Shown piece after piece: positions 3,146 through 32,387 of a stretch of DNA of 33,068 nucleotides. The translations under genes and the position numbers were made by a program. Position 1 is the stretch's first letter. Every line of letters starts with the position of its first letter. The notes beneath the pieces were generated by a model. That model saw nothing but the letters and a program-made list of their open reading frames with translations. It had not been told where the DNA came from and searched no databases. This DNA is from Octopus sinensis (taxonomy: Eukaryota), in the NCBI RefSeq assembly GCF_006345805.1, contig NW_021836046.1, forward strand, positions 1-33,068, written 5' to 3'.

Positions 3146-3649
3146 GGATCTTTTCGGTTTGAACGGCAGTTTTTTCTAGCGGTGTTATATGAAATTGTCA
3201 CCCATAATTATGACCCTAGAATCGATCTATTGCATTTCAATCTCTTTTAGGGTTAGGGTTAGAGTTAGGGTTAGGGTTAGAGGTGGGGGGAAAGGGTATT
3301 TTTTTTTTCTTCACAAATGTAAATTAACCCAATCTGATTCTTAAGCGAGGGACATATTCATACGGCACAGAATTCTTTTTGACTCAATAGACGTCACTGT
3401 TTCGTTGAAATTGTAGAAATTAGGCAGGAACAAAAAAAAAATTAAAGGTGGGTGCCAGATAAAATAACAGTACAGTACCAATAATAATGGAGGCACAGAA
3501 ACAACAAATATCTTACAAACTATAGAATTTTCTCAATAAAGCCAAGAGAAAAAGATGTTTTATAACCACATTCTACCAGTATACGAAGTTAAAAATTTTT
3601 AGTTACCTAGAAATTATGTTAAAAACTGCCGTTCAAACCGAAAAGATCC
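3146..3649. mobile_element. MITE with 29-bp TIRs and 8-bp TSD (Merlin-like), containing TTAGGG repeats
   Basis: TIR ggatcttttcggtttgaacggcagttttt / aaaaactgccgttcaaaccgaaaagatcc. TSD aacttatt at 3138-3145 and 3650-3657. GG...CC termini. Confidence 0.9.
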
Positions 3650-6695: not shown

Positions 6696-6818
6696 ATACA
6701 ATAATATAATATAATAATACTAATAACAATAATAATAATAATAATAATAATAACAATAATATAATAATAATAATAATAATAACAATAAGAATAATAATAG
6801 AATAATAATAATAATAAC

Positions 6819-6849
<31 letters not shown>

Positions 6850-6862
6850 TAATATAAATAAC

Positions 6863-6912
<50 letters not shown>
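6229..6912. repeat. Compound (AAT)n/(GAT)n tract
   Basis: Direct reading. Confidence 0.95.
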
Positions 6913-7029
6913 TTATACGGCAAGTCATTTCCCTTCTATAATTTCATTTAATTAATAATGCGTAAGGAAGGCTGCCATTGCTTGCGTTGTTTTTGTTGAT
7001 ATTATTTTTGTTGTTGACATTCTTATAGA

Positions 7030-7456
7030 CATTGTTGTGGTCGTTGTTGTTGTTGCTGCTGCTGCTGCTGCTGCTGATGCTGCTGTTGTTGTTGTTGTTC
7101 TTCTTGTTTTGCACTTTAATCATTTCAGGAAATTTCATTGGTTCGTTGCTTGTTCAGTTTTAATTTGTTTGCAACTGTTACTGGATGTTGTTCTTGTTGT
7201 TGTTGTTTTAGCGATTTTATAGTCATCGTCGTCGCCGCCGTCATCATCGTCGTGTTGTTGCTATTGTCGCAGTTGGTAATGTTCTCGATTATTGTTGTTC
7301 TATGCTAATAAAATTAGCCATTTTAGTCGGTTAGCCATTCTGTTGGTTTAATTTGTTGTATTTCTTTGGTCTTTCATTTTGTATTAGTGCTTGTGTGTGT
7401 TACCGGCGTTGCTGCTGGTGCTGTTGGGAGTGGTTGTTATGGTGGTGGTGGTGGTG

Positions 7457-7518
<62 letters not shown>

Positions 7519-7716
7519 GCTGGTGGTGGTGCTGGTGGTGGTGGTGCTGGTGGTGGTGCTGGTGGTGGTGGTGGTGATGGTGTTGGTGTTGGTTGTGGTG
7601 GTAGTAGTGGTAGTAACAGTAGTAGTAGTAGTAGTAGTAGCAGTGGTGCGGTGGTGATGATGGTGATGGTGGTGGTGGTGGAATTGGTAATGGTGGTAGT
7701 GGTGAGTAGTCAGTAA

Positions 7717-7748
<32 letters not shown>

Positions 7749-8700
7749 GCAGCAGCAGCAGCATTGCTGTGGTGATTTTCGTGACCATGGTGGTCGAGGT
7801 AGTAATAGAATTAAACGTAGTGTTGGTGGTGGTGGTGGTGGTGGTGGTATTGTTGGTTGTAGTGGTGGTAGTGGTGGTGCTGGTGGTTGCAGTAGTGGTT
7901 CTGCTCGTAGTAGTGATGATCTTAATGGTATCGGTGAGGGTGGGCATGGTGGTGAAATCGCCACCTTCGTTGTCGTTGACGTCTTCCAATTAGCGGTGAC
8001 GTTGATGAAGCCAAAGGCGTTACGAGGAGTGGTACAGGTGAAACGAACAGTGGTGCTAGTTGCACTTTTAGCGTTATTAACAGTGCTAGTAGTGGTAGTA
8101 GTAGTAGTGGTGGTGATACTAGTAGTATAGGCGATGGTAGTAGTGGTCACGGTAGTAGTACTAGAAGATGGGGTAGTTGTAGAACTGGTGTTGATAGTGA
8201 AGATGACGAGGGTGCGTGCAGGTGGTGGTGGTGTTGGTGGCGGCAGTGTTGCTGTTGGTATGGTGGTGGTCGTGGTGATGGTGGTCGTCGTCGTCGTCGT
8301 CTTCGATGTCGTGGAGGCGGCGGCGGTGGTGGTTTTGGTGGTGGTTGTGGAGATGTTGGCGGTGGTTGTAGTGTGGGGGTGGGGATGGGGGTGGCTGTCG
8401 GTGGTGATATTGGTGATGGTATGGTTTTGTTTGGTAATGGTGGTAGTGTTACTGCTGATGATGATGGTGGTGGTGGTGGTGGTTGTGGTGGCGGTGATGG
8501 TTTTAGAAGTTATATTATAGTTGTTGCTATTGTTGTTGGGGGTGGGATGGTTTCCGGTGATTCGGTATTTGTGCCGTTATTGGTGGACGAGTTGATTTCA
8601 ATGCTGGGGTTCGTATAGGTGGTATTGGTGCTCATAGTCTTAATGGTCATGGTGGTGGTGGTGATGTTGACGGCGGGGTCATGGCGGCGGTGATGTCATT
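7030..8700. repeat. Degenerate compound trinucleotide tract (GGT/GTA/GCT/GTT)n
   Basis: Direct reading. Produces poly-V/T/G pseudo-ORFs. Confidence 0.9.
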
Positions 8701-8733
8701 AATGATAACGTCTGTAGCTGTATTATGTTAATA

Positions 8734-8972
8734 CTTATTTCTTTATTACCCACAAGGGGCTAAACACAGAGGGGACAAACAAGGACAGACAGACGGATTA
8801 AGTCGATTATATCGATCCCAGTGCGTAACTGGTACTTAATTTACCGACCCCGAAAGGAGGAAAGGCAAAGTCGACCTTGGCGGAAATTGAACTCACAACG
8901 TAACGGCAGACGAAATACCGCTCGGCATTTCGCCCGATGTGCTAACGATTCTGCCAGCTCGCCGCCTTACAT
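8734..8972 (-). mobile_element. SINE family C full copy
   Basis: 13-bp TSD tattatgttaata at 8721-8733 and 8973-8985. Confidence 0.92.
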
Positions 8973-9014
8973 TATTATGTTAATAATATCGACAAAGTTA
9001 AAATCAACAATGTG

Positions 9015-9183
9015 CAGTTCTATATTTAAGAGATGAGGAATTATGTGCATTATTTACATATGCCAACGGATATATGGCGTAGTGGCTAAGAGCGCGGGGC
9101 TACTAACCTCAAGATTCCGAGTTCGATTCCAGCACTGTCCTAAATAATAATAATAATATAATAATAATAATAATAATAATAAT
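9015..9183 (+). mobile_element. SINE family D: inverted 3' terminus (9015-9073), tRNA-like head (9074-9141), (AAT)n
   Basis: Head matches 28272-28336. 9015-9073 is the reverse complement of 28675-28738. Confidence 0.85.
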
Positions 9184-9309
9184 TAAAAATATTTTATCTG
9201 TGAATTTGCGCGTGTAATCTCGGATGCATACAATGAGCTTCTCTGCCCTAGGTGTATGGAAAACACTCGGCAAGAAACGGAAGAAAATTTGAAGAAGGAA
9301 AAGAAAATC

Positions 9310-9870
<561 letters not shown>

Positions 9871-13720: not shown

Positions 13721-14041
13721 ACGATAAATGATAAACGTCGCCCTTTTCGGGCCTAGCCAGGCTCATGAGCCCGGTTTCCCGGTTTCTGTGACGTATGTGT
13801 ACCCCCACCCCGAGCTGGACGGGACGCCAGTCCATCGCAGCGTTTCTCAAGAAACAGGAAGAGAGAGTGAGAGAAAGTTGTGGCGAAAGAGTACAACAGA
13901 GATCGCCACCACCCCTCCCGGAGTCTCGTGGAGCTTTTAGGTGTTTTCTCTCAATAAATACACACAACGCCCGGTCTGGGAATCGAAACCGCGATTCTCC
14001 AACCGCGAGTCCGCTGCCCTAACCACTGGGCCAGTGCCTCC
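13721..14041 (-). mobile_element. SINE family B head with V-domain-like tail
   Basis: Minus strand gctgcgatggactggcgtcccgtccag. TSD tttatgc(c/t)tatta at 13708-13720 and 14042-14054. Confidence 0.9.
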
Positions 14042-16857: not shown

Positions 16858-17165
16858 GGCGCAATGGCCCAGTGGTTAGGGTCGCGGACTCGCGGTTGTA
16901 GGATCGCGGTTTCAATTCCTAGACCGGGCGTTATGGGTGTTTATTGAACGAAAACGCCTAAAGCTCCAAGAGGCTCCGCCAGGGGCTGGTTGCGATCCCT
17001 GGTGTACTCTTTCGCCACAATTTTCTCTCACACTTTCTTCTGTTGGTCCGTTTGCTTAGCCAGCGGGGTGGCGTCATTTGAAGGCTAAAACAATGCGAAG
17101 CGCATTGTGACCAGCGATGTGTAGCAACATCTGATGGCCTGGTCGGACACGGTGATCACGGTGAT
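16858..17165 (+). mobile_element. SINE family B head with tail Z ending in (cacggtgat)2
   Basis: Head near-identical to 2059-2220. Tail unrelated to X or Y. Confidence 0.88.
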
Positions 17166-24219: not shown

Positions 24220-24948
24220 TTAAAATCCATTTCTAACAAGTACATTATAGGCACAAAAACTAAGAATTCATACAAAAAGGCTTTGTTCGGTCTAATCTAT
24301 TTTTCTTTCTGTGTGTGATAGCGTATTTTAGGCACGACCTTTGTAGAAATTTGATGATTATATTTCAGCTATGCAGCAGCAACGTGAACAATGGAGAAAA
24401 TTCGCTGCATTAATACCTATTCAGGGCCTATTTTATGTATTAGCTGATCAATTCAATCAATGGTCGATAATGGCGGATCAATTGAAAGAGCAACCATAAC
24501 TAGCCTGTAGTAACAAGGTCAATACGAAGACAAACGAACGAAAAAAAATAGAAGAAAGAATGAAAGCTAATGGTTTTCATTGAAAATAGTAACCGGTCTT
24601 CCTTTAACTCATTTACGCAATATTACAGTATTCTTTTAAACATGGCATTACGTCAACATATGAATACTCACAGACACGCACAACCCTTCGTAATAAAAAT
24701 GAAACCAAAATTGGAACAGAGAAACCAATAAGCACAACAATACAATCTATAAAGATCACGCAGTCATCATCTTCAACGTGATGTTGGCGTAGGGCAGGAG
24801 GTGCACTGGCTCTACATTATTTCATTTTGGACTCGGTTATATAAACTGAGTTCAAATACTACTGGGGTTGATTTTATCTATAATCGAAAAAAAATATATA
24901 TTTAACAAATAATCAGGCATTGCATCGACTATATTTTCCATAATAACA

Positions 24949-25180
24949 GGCGGCGAGCTGGCAGACACGTTAGCGCGCCGGGCGAAATGCGTAGCAGTAT
25001 TTCGTCTGCCGTTACATTCTGAGTTCAAATTCCGCCGAGGTCGACTTTGCCTTTCATCCTTTCGGGATCGATAAATTTCGTACCAGTTTCCCACTGGGGT
25101 CGATGTAATCGATTTAATCCATTTGCCTGTCCTTGTTTGTCCCCTCTGTGCTTAGCCCCTTGTGGGTAATAAAGAAACAT
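24949..25180 (+). mobile_element. SINE family C full copy
   Basis: 18-bp TSD atat(t/c)ttccataataaca at 24931-24948 and 25181-25198. Confidence 0.93.
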
Positions 25181-25445
25181 ATATCTTCCATAATAACATC
25201 AAAGGTACATTTCCTTGGTTGCTCTTTTACATGTTTCAGTCATTTGACTGTGGCCATGCTGGAGCACCGCCTTTAGTCGAACAAATTGACCCCAGGACAT
25301 ATTCTTTGTAAGCCTAGTAATTATTCTATCGGACCCTTTTTGCCGAACCGCTAAGTAACGGGGACGTAAGCACACCAGCATCAGTTGCCAAGCGAAGTTA
25401 GGGGACAAACACAGACACAAACATACACTACACACACACATAAAT

Positions 25446-26334: not shown

Positions 26335-26797
26335 TAAGGGTTCACACTTGCAGAATCGTTACCACGTCGGACAAAAAGTGCTTGGCAATATTTTGTCCGT
26401 CTACTGGTTCTGATTTCAAACGTCGCTAAGACCATCTTCGTCTTTCAACTTTTCAAGTGCAGTAAAATAAATACCTATTTCTTTACTACCCACAAGGGGC
26501 TAAACACAGAGGGGACAAGCAAGGACAAACAAACGGATTAAGTCGATTACATCGACCCCAGTGCGTAACTGGTACTTAATTTATCGACTCCAAAAGGATG
26601 AAAGGCAAAGTCGACCTCGGCGGAATTTGAACTCAGAACGTAGCGGCAGACGAAATACTGCTAAGCATTTCGCCCGGCGTGCTAACGTTTCTGCCGCAAT
26701 AAAATAAATACCAGTTGTGTACTGGGGTCGATGTGATCGACTAGCTTCCCCTCCCCTAAAATTTTTACGTCCTGTACCTATAGTATAAAGGATTATT
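26335..26797 (+). mobile_element. Old family C variant SINE split by a younger copy
   Basis: Halves at 26335-26475 and 26700-26797. Confidence 0.7.
26476..26699 (-). mobile_element. SINE family C young copy
   Basis: 13-bp TSD taaaataaatacc at 26463-26475 and 26700-26712. Confidence 0.9.
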
Positions 26798-27860: not shown

Positions 27861-28150
27861 CATTCCGTCGTTTACGACGATGTGTGTTCCAATCGATCCG
27901 ATCAACGAAATAGTCCGCTCGTGAAATTAAAGTGCAACTGGCTGAGTACTCCACAGACATGCGTACCCTTAACGTAGTTTTCAAGGAGATTCAGCGTAAC
28001 ACTGAATGTGACAATGCTGATCCTTTGAATTAAAAGTACGATTCATTTTTACTATTAGAGTGGAATGGAATAACGTGAAATAAGGTATTCTGCTCAAGGA
28101 TACAGTGCGCCGTCAGGAATCGAACCCACTACCTAACGAAGCGGATGATT
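27861..28150 (-). mobile_element. SINE with a different (CORE-like) head and tail X
   Basis: 27861-28030 is the reverse complement of ~2245-2415. Head has ggttcgattcc and tccttgagcag. Confidence 0.8.
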
Positions 28151-28271
28151 CACTCAGTCTCCTCTGAAAATTTTCGAACAGATGACAAATAGACGAAGGA
28201 GAGAAATGAGAGCTGACTGCTCCTAATCACTAAGCCACGCCACTTCATCCCCATACAACATAGAAACAATA

Positions 28272-28466
28272 TGGCGCAGTGGTTAAGAGCGCGAGTTACT
28301 AACCCAAAGATTCGGAGTTCGATTCCAGGTAGTGACTTATTATTATTATTATTAAAGTCAAACAACTGACAAGCAAATCTGTGGCATTGAGCAAAATATT
28401 TGCTGTAGCCCATTTTTATTATTATTATTATTACTATTATCACTATTATTATTATTATTACTATTA

Positions 28467-28518
<52 letters not shown>

Positions 28519-28738
28519 CATCATCATCATCATCATCATCATTATTATTATTATAACATCGAAAAATACCTCAGGAATGAGAACACAGGTCCGAAATTTC
28601 CCCAAGACACCTGATGAAGGCTGGAGGGTATATCAGCCGAAACGTTGTGTTGACAACAAACAAGATGAGGACAAATATCCGTCAAATGTAAATAGTGTAA
28701 ATAATGTACATAATTCCCCATCTCTTAAATATAGAACT
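28272..28738 (+). mobile_element. SINE family D: tRNA-like head, microsatellite, HHR-containing tail
   Basis: A box tggcgcagtgg, B box gagttcgattcc, (TTA)n, tail at 28553-28738. Confidence 0.8.
28606..28651 (+). ncRNA. Minimal type I hammerhead ribozyme motif
   Basis: gacac CTGATGA a ggctgg-agggtata-tcagcc GAAA CGTT^ gtgtt. Palindromic AACGTT stem III. Confidence 0.8.
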
Positions 28739-28829
28739 ATAAAAAACAATACAGATTGGTATGGAATCTATTAGCATACTCTGTAATTAAAGATTCGAAA
28801 TAACCGTGTAGATAAGTAAAGCGCTAGAG

Positions 28830-31318
28830 CAGTCATGGGCATCCTGTGGCCCACGAAGATTTCTGAATGGCTCACCTAAATTTGAAACGAAAAAAATTGC
28901 CATCGTCAGACAACTGTATAATTTTCAAAGTGCCTCAGAGTCGATCCACAGCAATCCAAATATTCAAGACCGTATTGATTTAATGTTCAATTTCTGATTC
29001 CAATGTTTATAATGACTTGTGATAGTTCAGCGACTGTCAACACACGTGATATTCGTGTAACGTTGTCAAGCAGGATTAATGGAATTTTCAAAGAATTAGT
29101 GTGCAAAATGCTGTGTTTTTTTTTTTTGGGAATTTTAATTTTTGATGTCTAAGCTAATGGCTTTATTCCCAAAAAAAGAATGATTTCCGAAGAAATGAGA
29201 ACATTCCAGGAAAGCTGGACAAATGATTATTTATTTCATGACGTAAAAAACAAAACAATATGTTTAGTATGTCTCCACTTTATGCAGCGAGCTGGCAGAA
29301 ACGTTAGCACGCCGGTCGAACTGCGTAGCCGTATTTCGTCTGCCGTTACGTTCTGAGTTCGAATTCCACCGAGGTTGACCTGGCCTTTCATCCTTTCGGG
29401 GTCGATAATTTAAGTACCAGTTACGCACTGGGGTCGATATAATCGACTTAATCCGTGTGTCTGTCTTTGTTTGTTCTCTCTGTGTTTAGCCCCTTGTGGG
29501 TAGTAAAGCAATAAGTAATTCGTCTGTCGTAACGTTCTGAGTTCAAATTCTGCCGAGGTCAACCTGGCCTTTCATCCTTTCGGGATCGATAAATTAAGTA
29601 CCAGTTACGCACTGGGGTTGATGTAATCGACTTAATCCCTTTGTCTGTCCTTGCTTGTCTCCTCTATGTTTAGCCCCTTGTGGGCAATAAAGAAATATAT
29701 TTTAATGCGTAGCCGTATGAAGGCAGCGAGCTGGCAGAAACGTTAGCACGCCGGGCGAAATGCGTAGCCGTATTTCGTCTTAGAAGAACTTGAATCAGAG
29801 TATGGTAACCTTGTTTACTACTGTGCAGCTCGTTGGCTAAGTAAGGGGAAGATGTTTCGACGATTTTATAGCCTGCGAGAAGAGGTGTGTACCTTCTTAG
29901 AAAAAAAGGGTAAATTTGTTCCGGAGCTGAAAAATGATAACTGGATTTGTGAACTTGCATTCCTCGTGGAGATAATAACACATTTAAATGATTTAAATTT
30001 AAAATTGCAAAAGCAAAATCAGTTAATCCATGAGATGTATTCCCATGTCAAAGCTTTTCAAGCAAAACTTCAAATTTAGGAGAATCAACTCAGGATTGGT
30101 GATGCTTTTCATTTCCCCATTCGCGGGTCAACATCTAGATATGATGATTTTGCTGCAGAGCTTAAATGACCTGAAAAAATTGAACTGAACACCAGATTTA
30201 ATGACTTTAATCTTTTCAGAAATTTCTTTAACGCTGATGGGGAAAAAGTTCGGAAGGAATTGCAAATGGATCTAATTGAGTTTTCAGAGTGATGAATTCC
30301 TTCGGCAAAAATTTAAAGAGGAATCATTTAATGCATTTTTATATGGAACTCTACCCGAAGAAAACTGCTTGAAATTAGTGTGCTTTGCTAGAAGATATAC
30401 CACCATGTTTGTTAGTACGTATAAATGCGAACAACTCTTTTCTAGAACGAAAATAATAAAGTCGAGAACCAGGTCAGGATTGACTGATATTCATCTGGAA
30501 GGCAACTTACGAGTCGCAACATCGCAAATTCTTGTAAACATTGAGAAACTCACAGAAAATGCACAATACCAGGTTTCTCATTAAAATTAGTAAATTATTC
30601 CTATTAACATCAATAACAAATGGCTGATAAATACGATTTTATTTGTCTGTATTTTGTTAAGCATGGTGTGTGGCGTAGTCGAACTATTTTCATCGTCTGT
30701 ACTGCTCTATTTTATTCTTTTGTTATACTTCAGGTAAATTAATTTGTTTTTCAAATTCTTTCCTTTTTTCTATTTTTTAGTTTCTTTCCTTTATCATAGA
30801 TAGATAACGCGTAATGTTAAATGCACATATCTTAATTCTTTTTAATTGTTTGTTTACATCTTTTAAGCATTTTCCCTAAGTACAATAGCTTGAAACGGTT
30901 CGACTGAACCACATACGTAACAATGACTAAGTACTATATTTCTTGAATTTTGCAACCTTTCGTTGAAAGTAAGGTTTTCGGTATTTAAAAATATTGGCGG
31001 ATATTTACATGTTTTGTTCCAAAAACAAAACGTTCATAATAATTCTTTTCTCCGGAGAAATATTTTTGGCGCTAATTAACATATCAGAATAATAAAATCT
31101 ACGATGAAATGTAAATAAAACCTTTCTGATGTTTTTACCTCAACTTTTCATTTGTAATTTATGTTTCTATCATAAACAACATGCACGAATTCTGGAAAAA
31201 ATAGATCAGAACAACCTGAGTTACCACTCTTTTTTAATGTGGGCACGAATGTAAATTAGCGCTTGCGGCCCGCTTAATTATGAGACATATCTCATGCAAG
31301 AAAGGTTGCCCATGTCTG
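28830..31318 (+). mobile_element. hAT (Charlie/SPIN/GTF2IRD2-like) transposon, decayed
   Basis: TIRs cagtcatgggcatcct / aggttgcccatgtctg. 8-bp TSD cgctagag/tgctagag. RWLSKGK, LAFLVEIITHLNDLNLKLQ and STYKCEQLFS..RSGLTD motifs at 29782-30584. Confidence 0.93.
29284..29780 (+). mobile_element. Cluster of family C SINEs (full, partial tandem, head) inside the hAT ORF
   Basis: Units at 29284-29514, 29515-29696 and 29721-29780. Confidence 0.9.
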
Positions 31319-31460: not shown

Positions 31461-31902
31461 TAGGCGGCGAGCTGGCATTAAGGCGGCGAGCTGGCAGAAA
31501 CGTTAGCACGCCGGGCGAAATGCTTAGTCGGTATTTCGTCTGCGTTACGTTGTGAGTTCAAATTCCGCCGAGGTCGGCTTTGCCTTTCATCCTTTCGCGG
31601 TCGATAAATTAAGTACCAGTTACGCACTGGGGTCGATGTAATCGACTTAATACCTATGTCTGTCCTTGTTTGTCCCCTCTGTGTTTAGCCCCTTGTGGGT
31701 AATAAAGAAATAGAAATAGGTATTTCGTCTGCCGTTACGTTCTGAGTTCAAATTCCACCGAGGTCGACTTTGCCTTTCATCCTTTCGCGGTCGATAAATT
31801 AAGTACCAGTTACGCACTGGGGTCGATGTAATTGACTTAATCTGTTTGTCTGTCCTTGTTTGTCCTCTCTGTGTTTAGCCCCTTGTGGGTAATAAAGAAA
31901 TA
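31461..31902 (+). mobile_element. Family C SINE with partial tandem duplication, single insertion
   Basis: 15-bp TSD ggtagat(c/g)tattttg at 31446-31460 and 31903-31917. Confidence 0.92.
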
Positions 31903-32387
31903 GGTAGATGTATTTTGAAATAGAAACAGAACCATCCCCACGCGACGTAATTAATCTTCTAGCGTGACGTCATCGCGATGGATACATAACACGCTGTCGC
32001 AGCACAGATTTTCAAGTAATTACAGAACCAACTGCTAATAACAAAACAACACTTCATTAGATATCAACCATATGGATAATTAACATACATTAATAATTGA
32101 GAAACGTTAATTAGTGAAAGAAAACAGTGTTGCTAATAATACAAGCTATATTGAAAGTGAGCGGCGAATGGTTATTCAGTTACGGGTAATATACGTGCGG
32201 GTTGGTAAAGTAGATAATCTCGGATATGGGGTTGGGGTTTTGAGGGTGCGCAGATGTATGAGGCAGGATTCAGTTACTCTGTTCTTGTGATATCTATGAT
32301 GAAGAATATGATAGTAGTGTGTTGGCTGCAGTATAGAGACGTATTACTCACGAACGAGGATACTTTGGCAGCATACTCTATGCACTG

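What the first reader, a model, noticed from the sequence alone, without database searches (positions are those of the whole stretch)
28272..28738. tRNA-derived SINE with a hammerhead ribozyme tail (candidate Penelope-dependent SINE)
Seen: a Pol III A/B-box head, then trinucleotide repeats, then a tail with gacac-CUGAUGA-a-stem II (6 bp)-GAAACGUU^-guguu and a palindromic AACGUU. Established: such minimal dimer-acting HHRs mark PLE termini, SINE tails normally derive from LINEs, and Schistosoma Sm-alpha is a precedent for an HHR in a SINE-like repeat. Inference: a SINE that borrowed a PLE 3' end. The head-tail link is supported by the second locus at 9015. A 64-bp island (28354-28417) interrupts the linker.
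Basis: partly seen in the sequence, partly recalled or inferred. Interest (0 to 1): 0.85.

Follow-up and report, generated by a model that had tools for sequence, protein, structure and literature searches.

The report
Penelope retroelement with tRNA-derived promoter
This is a short copy of the end module of a very abundant Penelope-like jumping gene that carries a tRNA-derived stretch right in front of its own coding sequence and ribozyme motif; that stretch likely marks where the element's RNA starts, which would make it a rare protein-coding jumping gene read by the cell's tRNA-making polymerase.

Summary
The A/B-box head and the minimal hammerhead are real and linked genome-wide (79 of 87 heads have the tail; about 20,000 insertions). 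But this is not a SINE that borrowed a Penelope end. The head sits 36 nt behind the stop codon of an autonomous Penelope/Poseidon-type RT + GIY-YIG element (30 of 30 ORF-end loci), and the 'tail' is the first 54 codons of that ORF. Short and ORF-bearing copies show no diagnostic differences. Insertions carry Penelope marks: target duplications and head-to-head arms, of which exactly one has the extra ~35-nt tail (39 of 41). The locus at 9015 is such an inverted pair, not head-then-tail. New: 5' ends pile up 3-16 nt before the A box (27-fold hazard), where Pol III would start, also in ORF-start copies; and the element has no shared TTTT terminator, unlike 80 relatives. Best reading: a PLE whose RNA begins at a captured tRNA-type promoter; short copies are run-off cDNAs. 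Pol III use and ribozyme cleavage are untested; whole-ORF Pol III transcription is suggestive only (p about 0.001-0.06). A family search of Repbase/Dfam was not possible.

The parts
28264..28271 (+). left copy of probable target-site duplication (8 nt exact; last 3 nt overlap the head)
   Evidence: 8-nt score reached by 5 of 174 shuffled flank pairs
28269..28336 (+). tRNA-derived head of the PLE pseudo-LTR; begins 3 nt before the A box, i.e. about 10 nt short of the family's usual 5' edge
28272..28282 (+). A box
   Evidence: sequence; motif consensus recalled
28317..28326 (+). B box
   Evidence: sequence; motif consensus recalled
28337..28555 (+). microsatellite linker, here (ATT)n/(ATC)n, opposite in orientation to the family's (AAT)n; secondarily altered
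28354..28417 (-). 64-bp fragment of another abundant (AAT)n-associated, about 500-bp tandem repeat; puts a T5 run (28413-28417) on the plus strand that would stop Pol III before the hammerhead in this copy
   Evidence: terminator role inferred
28556..28738 (+). 'tail' = short 5' UTR plus first 54 codons (ATG 28577) of the PLE ORF, ending at the distal of the family's two 3' end sites
28606..28651 (+). minimal type I hammerhead inside the reading frame; predicted cut after 28646
   Evidence: cleavage untested
28744..28751 (+). right copy of probable target-site duplication
9016..9058 (-). second insertion: inverted arm, last 43 nt of the tail
   Evidence: 95% to 28696-28738
9063..9132 (+). second insertion: forward arm, head starting near the family's 5' edge; forward tail not found
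   Evidence: 87% over 61 nt

Best explanation
The stretch is a short retrotransposed copy of the end module (pseudo-LTR) of an autonomous Penelope/Poseidon-type element, and the tRNA-derived head belongs to that element, where it likely sets the RNA start as a Pol III-type promoter. Shown: unit order is head - (AAT)n - ORF start with the hammerhead inside its first 25 codons - RT - GIY-YIG - stop - 36 nt - head again; insertions have target duplications and head-to-head arms that end at two alternative sites about 35 nt apart. Inferred: the RNA starts about 13 nt before the A box and is longer than one unit; the protein nicks both target strands and primes reverse transcription at the two internal sites (as shown in vitro for the anole element PAc). 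Priming at the sites near the RNA's 5' end runs off at the start site and gives short, SINE-looking copies such as this one (about three quarters of heads); priming at the downstream sites passes the head and gives 5'-truncated ORF copies. The hammerhead would cut only as a dimer or with protein help. Whether Pol III also reads the whole ORF is the open step.
For: Head directly after ORF stop in 30 of 30. RT and C-terminal GIY-YIG/CCHH, homologs 40-68% identical with PF00078, PF26215, some PF01541. Tail reads in frame into the conserved N-terminal domain; homolog P0003 has the same peptide over the hammerhead. Tail runs into the ORF start in 16 of 18 ORF-start loci. No diagnostic base between 67 short and 20 ORF-bearing copies; divergence 5.4% vs 6.4%, p 0.23. 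One long and one short arm in 39 of 41 inverted pairs, none with two long. Target duplications score >=10 in 22 of 58 vs 1 of 174 controls. 5' ends: 46 of 87 fall 3-16 nt before the A box, hazard 27 times that in the ORF end; still 43 of 78 after removing mirror-image junctions; exact 21-mers 3,847 in the head vs 814 at 59 nt upstream. All 5 ORF-start copies that include head sequence upstream stop at or after -14. No shared T4 run in about 2.46 kb examined; 12 sporadic vs 90.8 expected; 80 relatives have 480 vs 327.5 expected.
Against: No RNA evidence for the start site or polymerase: three RNA-seq runs of a related organism gave equal depth on both strands, about 70% of reads running into flanks and no start pile-up. 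The pile-up window was chosen after seeing the data and coincides with a small palindrome that could favour junctions or stall RT. The T4 result rests on one ancestral sequence: p 0.0007-0.005 by Poisson, only 0.03-0.06 conditional on TTT sites, and single-ORF shuffles were not significant; 3 of 68 relatives also lack T4 in their matched part. A TATA-like TTTATAA over the stop codon, 24-30 nt before the inferred start, fits Pol II as well. Only 5 upstream heads were seen, too few to be significant. At least 2 'short' copies (L264, L268) are internal deletions of long ones. No intact ORF was seen among the copies examined.
Confidence: 0.62

Rival explanations
1. Same PLE anatomy, but the head is a passive old tRNA/SINE insertion in the UTR; the RNA is made by Pol II (TATA-like box over the stop codon) or the 5' pile-up comes from RT stalling or joining at the small palindrome.
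For: Palindrome at -14..-3 with both loop orientations at mirror junctions; TTTATAA kept in most ORF-end copies; Drosophila Penelope uses an internal LINE-like promoter (PMC2377424, abstract); no RNA start seen.
Against: Pile-up persists without mirror junctions and in copies that abut plain flank (20 of 45); ends reach through the palindrome to a sharp upstream edge rather than stopping before it; A-box distance fits Pol III (recalled rule of about 10-20 nt); absence of shared T4 runs and of the T-rich UTR that relatives have before the hammerhead.
Confidence: 0.22
2. One reading: short copies are a true PLE-dependent SINE, transcribed from solo copies by Pol III and moved in trans, but too young or too constrained to have diverged from the parent PLE.
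For: Short copies outnumber ORF-bearing ones about 3 to 1, carry intact A/B boxes and have no T4 between head and tail in the shared state; non-autonomous PLE derivatives are known (PMC8557442; bioRxiv 10.64898/2026.07.22.740005).
Against: No diagnostic variants; solo copies end at the RT start sites, while PAc needs RNA beyond those sites (first 172 nt of ORF vs starts at 111-118; PMC11167929); long copies start at the same edge.
Confidence: 0.14

Closest known systems
Penelope/Poseidon-clade EN+ PLEs, e.g. PAc of Anolis (PMC11167929, main text read) and min-HHR-bearing PLEs (PMC4209133, main text read)
   Same: Single RT + C-terminal GIY-YIG ORF, partial tandem pLTR, adjacent inverted truncated copy, 30-40 nt optional tail, minimal hammerhead overlapping the ORF start.
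   Different: tRNA-derived A/B-box module and (AAT)n in place of a T-rich UTR; sharp 5' edge at Pol III distance; no shared T4 run. None of this is described in the papers read.
Schistosoma Sm-alpha / Sj-alpha (seen only through the review PMC6765202, passages; the original papers were not held)
   Same: Pol III-type promoter followed by a hammerhead in a short, abundant repeat.
   Different: Sm-alpha is non-coding, tandem, with an active canonical hammerhead; here the module is contiguous with a coding PLE, arranged as inverted pairs, with a minimal hammerhead inside the reading frame.
TRIMp3 elements Cassandra, Helenus, Ajax (PMC10886601, passages)
   Same: Small-RNA-derived Pol III promoter captured inside a terminal repeat.
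   Different: Those are non-autonomous LTR elements of 0.3-1.3 kb; the author argues autonomous partners must use Pol II. Here the captured module is in the autonomous element.
Animal non-LTR retrozymes and non-autonomous PLE derivatives (PMC7229834 passages; bioRxiv 10.64898/2026.07.22.740005 part 1 of 5 plus term search; MRC1 in PMC8557442 passages)
   Same: Short pLTR-related hammerhead units spread by PLE machinery.
   Different: Retrozymes are head-to-tail tandem arrays; the preprint has no occurrence of tRNA, pol III or promoter. Here copies are single or head-to-head and not a separate lineage.

Membership tests
EN+ Penelope-like element (Penelope/Poseidon clade) | One ORF with RT and C-terminal GIY-YIG (CCHH) | tested here: met
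   RVT_1 hits over cut-off in L233 and L230; GIY-YIG/CCHH motif read in L073, L076 and aligned with homologs. Pfam missed L229 and L076. All copies seen are broken.
EN+ Penelope-like element (Penelope/Poseidon clade) | Partial tandem (pLTR-ORF-pLTR) | tested here: met
   L219; tail runs into ORF start in 16 of 18
EN+ Penelope-like element (Penelope/Poseidon clade) | Inverted truncated copy at the 5' end and 30-40 nt tail at one end only | tested here: met
   42 of 67 short copies have an inverted arm; 39 of 41 pairs have one long arm
EN+ Penelope-like element (Penelope/Poseidon clade) | Minimal hammerhead in the pLTR | tested here: met
   (core chosen by pattern, so only stem covariation is a test)
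EN+ Penelope-like element (Penelope/Poseidon clade) | No zinc-finger linker between RT and EN (separates it from Neptune/Nematis); placement in an RT tree | tested here: inconclusive
   No shared Cys motif in the linker by eye; no tree with named clade members was built
tRNA-derived SINE | tRNA-derived head with A and B boxes at the 5' end | tested here: met
tRNA-derived SINE | Transcribed by Pol III | not testable with these tools
   RNA-seq lay uninformative
tRNA-derived SINE | Separate non-autonomous lineage, head absent from the autonomous partner | tested here: not met
   Head is in the autonomous element in 30 of 30; no diagnostic bases
tRNA-derived SINE | 3' end shared with a LINE and closed by an A-rich or simple-repeat tail | tested here: not met
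   3' ends fall at two fixed PLE sites inside a reading frame
tRNA-derived SINE | Target-site duplications, 100-700 bp length | tested here: met
   about 280-470 bp
Non-LTR retrozyme | Head-to-tail tandem array with a hammerhead in each unit | tested here: not met
   Short copies examined are single or head-to-head
Hammerhead ribozyme (active) | Self-cleavage after the NUH triplet | not testable with these tools
   needs a bench assay

The most novel reading that the evidence does not exclude
An autonomous, protein-coding retroelement whose whole longer-than-unit RNA (about 3 kb) is made by Pol III from a captured tRNA promoter, with the ORF purged of T4 terminators and translated without a cap; its run-off cDNAs show how a SINE can be born from inside its own autonomous partner.
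Probability: 0.3. Interest if true: 0.85.

Novelty: new variant of a known kind. Interest (0 to 1): 0.62.

Why it matters
PLE promoters and RNA start sites are barely known; here tens of thousands of copies mark the likely start and the two RT priming sites, giving in-genome support for two-strand priming at the two sites seen in vitro. If Pol III drives the element, it breaks the usual split (coding retroelements on Pol II, SINEs on Pol III) and offers a direct route to SINE origin. In practice, such copies will be mis-annotated as tRNA SINEs.

Tried and rejected
Rfam and ARAGORN: no hammerhead or tRNA call. Single-strand folding: no stability signal; a dimer cofold had a faulty structure string and is not used. 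Independent SINE lineage: no diagnostic bases. Locus 9015 as head-then-tail: rejected. Parent tRNA: unresolved, only 7 isotypes sampled. Run search: no RNA holder listed; RNA lay gave no start or end pile-up; the lay over a full tandem copy was not obtained, so expression of the whole unit is open. A/B-box pattern in 80 distant relatives: 0 hits, but the pattern finds only 12 of 30 family loci and many relatives are cut by contig ends; low-threshold ARAGORN there was noise. Five T4-poor relatives all have T4 runs elsewhere in the locus and no Pol III head seen. Phe codon bias (TTC over TTT) is present but also in some controls: not used. Closer relatives with DNA context: none in viral or prokaryote collections. 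Random 1.2 Mb gave too few copies for a 5'-end test. Rows dropped: L263, L265, L266 (duplicates of L262); L215-L217 (near-copies of L223); L237 was mis-oriented in my script and so fell out. Literature: searches listed no PLE with a tRNA/Pol III promoter; subscription journals, Repbase and Dfam were not searchable, Ferbeyre 1998 and Lunse 2017 were not held, and no supplements were read, so the family may already be catalogued.

Full report
Observation. The window is from a 2.72-Gb, microsatellite-rich animal genome. Rfam and ARAGORN do not detect them. The hammerhead stems covary with those of 8 of the 14 distant PLE relatives in which a pattern found a hammerhead (10 of 11 pairs change on both sides; 0 of 500 shuffles reach the 86% paired). 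The head is tRNA-like (best local scores to Arg-TCT, Ala-TGC and Thr-AGT genes of this genome, z 5-7.5), parent unresolved. The second locus is not head-then-tail: the tail's last 43 nt lie on the minus strand directly before a plus-strand head. The island is an antisense fragment of another abundant repeat and brings a T5 run, so this copy is likely dead as a Pol III unit.

Family. Head and tail are linked: 28 of 30 best head loci (window included) and 79 of 87 heads picked by an exact internal 21-mer. Ten insertions in 1.2 Mb of evenly spaced samples give about 23,000 genome-wide (95% interval 11,000-42,000).

The head belongs to an autonomous element. [quoted passage not shown] All 30 loci picked by the ORF's last 200 nt have the head 36 nt after the stop, 29 also the tail. 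The tail is the ORF's own start: from ATG 28577 it reads 54 codons open, the hammerhead core spells P-D-E-G...P-K-R, homolog P0003 has the same peptide, and the last codons enter the conserved N-terminal domain. In 16 of 18 ORF-start loci the tail runs straight into the ORF. This is the layout of the anole element PAc, whose ORF starts in the hammerhead and whose RT starts internally at two sites that define the optional tail (PMC11167929).

Short copies are not a separate lineage. Between 67 short and 20 ORF-bearing copies no position has a different majority base; divergence is 5.4% vs 6.4% (58 and 17 copies scored, p 0.23). Insertions have target duplications (score >=10 in 22 of 58 vs 1 of 174 shuffled pairs). 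3' ends are bimodal (about tail position 141-158 and 178-186). Of 41 head-to-head pairs, 39 have exactly one long arm, none has two, and the long arm is forward in 22 and inverted in 17. This is what two priming events, one per target strand and one per start site, would leave (inference; PAc cuts and extends both strands in vitro).

The 5' edge. Of 87 heads, 46 end 3-16 nt before the A box, 6 in the next 13 nt, and only 6 in the following 145 nt of ORF; 15 run further (hazard ratio 27; window chosen after seeing the data). Exact 21-mer counts agree: 3,847 in the head, 814 at 59 nt upstream. A small palindrome lies at the edge, but removing the 9 mirror-image junctions leaves 43 of 78, and 20 of 45 copies without a detectable partner arm at the junction end there too. 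ORF-start copies with an upstream head also stop at or after -14 (L219, L461, L462, L466, L467); five is too few for significance. The simplest reading is an RNA 5' end about 13 nt before the A box, the distance expected for Pol III (recalled). A TATA-like TTTATAA over the stop codon lies 24-30 nt before it and could serve either polymerase.

T runs. In 41,960 aligned nt from 26 ORF copies there are 12 runs of 4 or more T against 90.8 expected and none of 5 against 19.9; none is shared, over 2,190 of 2,412 body nt plus head and tail. Eighty distant relatives have 480 against 327.5 expected, other PLE-like ORFs of this genome 29 in 6,744 nt, and the 9 relatives printed have T-rich sequence before the hammerhead where this family has the head and (AAT)n. 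But it is one ancestral sequence: p 0.0007-0.005 (Poisson), 0.03-0.06 given the TTT sites, single-ORF shuffles not significant, and 3 of 68 relatives also lack T4 in the matched part. Suggestive, not shown.

RNA. Three RNA-seq runs of a related organism put 6,699-9,705 reads on a copy, equally on both strands, about 70% running into unrelated flanks, with no start pile-up: no information on start site or polymerase. Contigs of another organism span ORF end to head (table 8), so the link is not private to this assembly.

Mechanism. Shown: unit anatomy, shared ancestry of short and long copies, two end sites, target duplications, 5' pile-up. Inferred: a longer-than-unit RNA starts at the head; priming at the upstream start sites runs off as short copies, priming at the downstream sites gives ORF copies; the head is a Pol III-type promoter captured from a tRNA or SINE. 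Untested: polymerase, cleavage, translation. In PAc the hammerhead needs protein and is dispensable for insertion in vitro (PMC11167929); in head-to-head pairs the two hammerheads are on opposite strands and cannot dimerise in one RNA. Ribozyme cleavage can allow cap-independent translation in some viruses (PMC13725137, abstract), but here the cut falls after the first ATG, so that route is unclear.

Comparison. It is a Penelope/Poseidon-type PLE by the features tested and works like a SINE at its short end, but fails SINE membership on lineage and 3' end. Sm-alpha, TRIMp3 elements and retrozymes are the nearest analogues. Ten library searches listed no PLE with a tRNA/Pol III promoter; Repbase, Dfam and subscription papers were not searchable. 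Earlier scan notes describe clustered 5' ends in other PLE end copies and tRNA-bearing non-coding PLE parasites; unchecked leads only.

Verdict. New variant of a known kind; interest 0.62. The bold case, Pol III transcription of the whole coding element, has about 0.3.

Noticed in passing
window 28354-28417; L332-L342, L050, L454, L469: The island's parent is an abundant, (AAT)n-associated repeat that occurs in about 500-bp partial tandems and also sits in or before other copies of this PLE; it may be another microsatellite-targeting retroelement. Not classified.
   Followed up: partly
window 27900-28249 (minus strand); 2243-2375: A second repeat with an A-box and a B-box-like motif about 100 nt apart lies head-to-head with the finding; its body matches 2243-2375 at 84%.
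   Followed up: no
window 8731-8975, 24940-25184, 26469-26695, 29284-29706, 31530-31906: Very abundant ~190-bp SINE-like family, twice in tandem.
   Followed up: no
window 16861-16960 (+) and 13940-14040 (-): Another tRNA-like SINE family with A and B boxes, two copies.
   Followed up: no
L462 (G000:C4:154069944-154070481): Head-to-head pair in which both arms run on past the tail into the ORF start.
   Followed up: partly
L100, L112, L134, L136, L146: Other, distant PLE-like ORFs turned up in the random sample; they are T4-rich.
   Followed up: partly
window 3247-3282: Short interstitial (TTAGGG)n, 5.7 copies.
   Followed up: no
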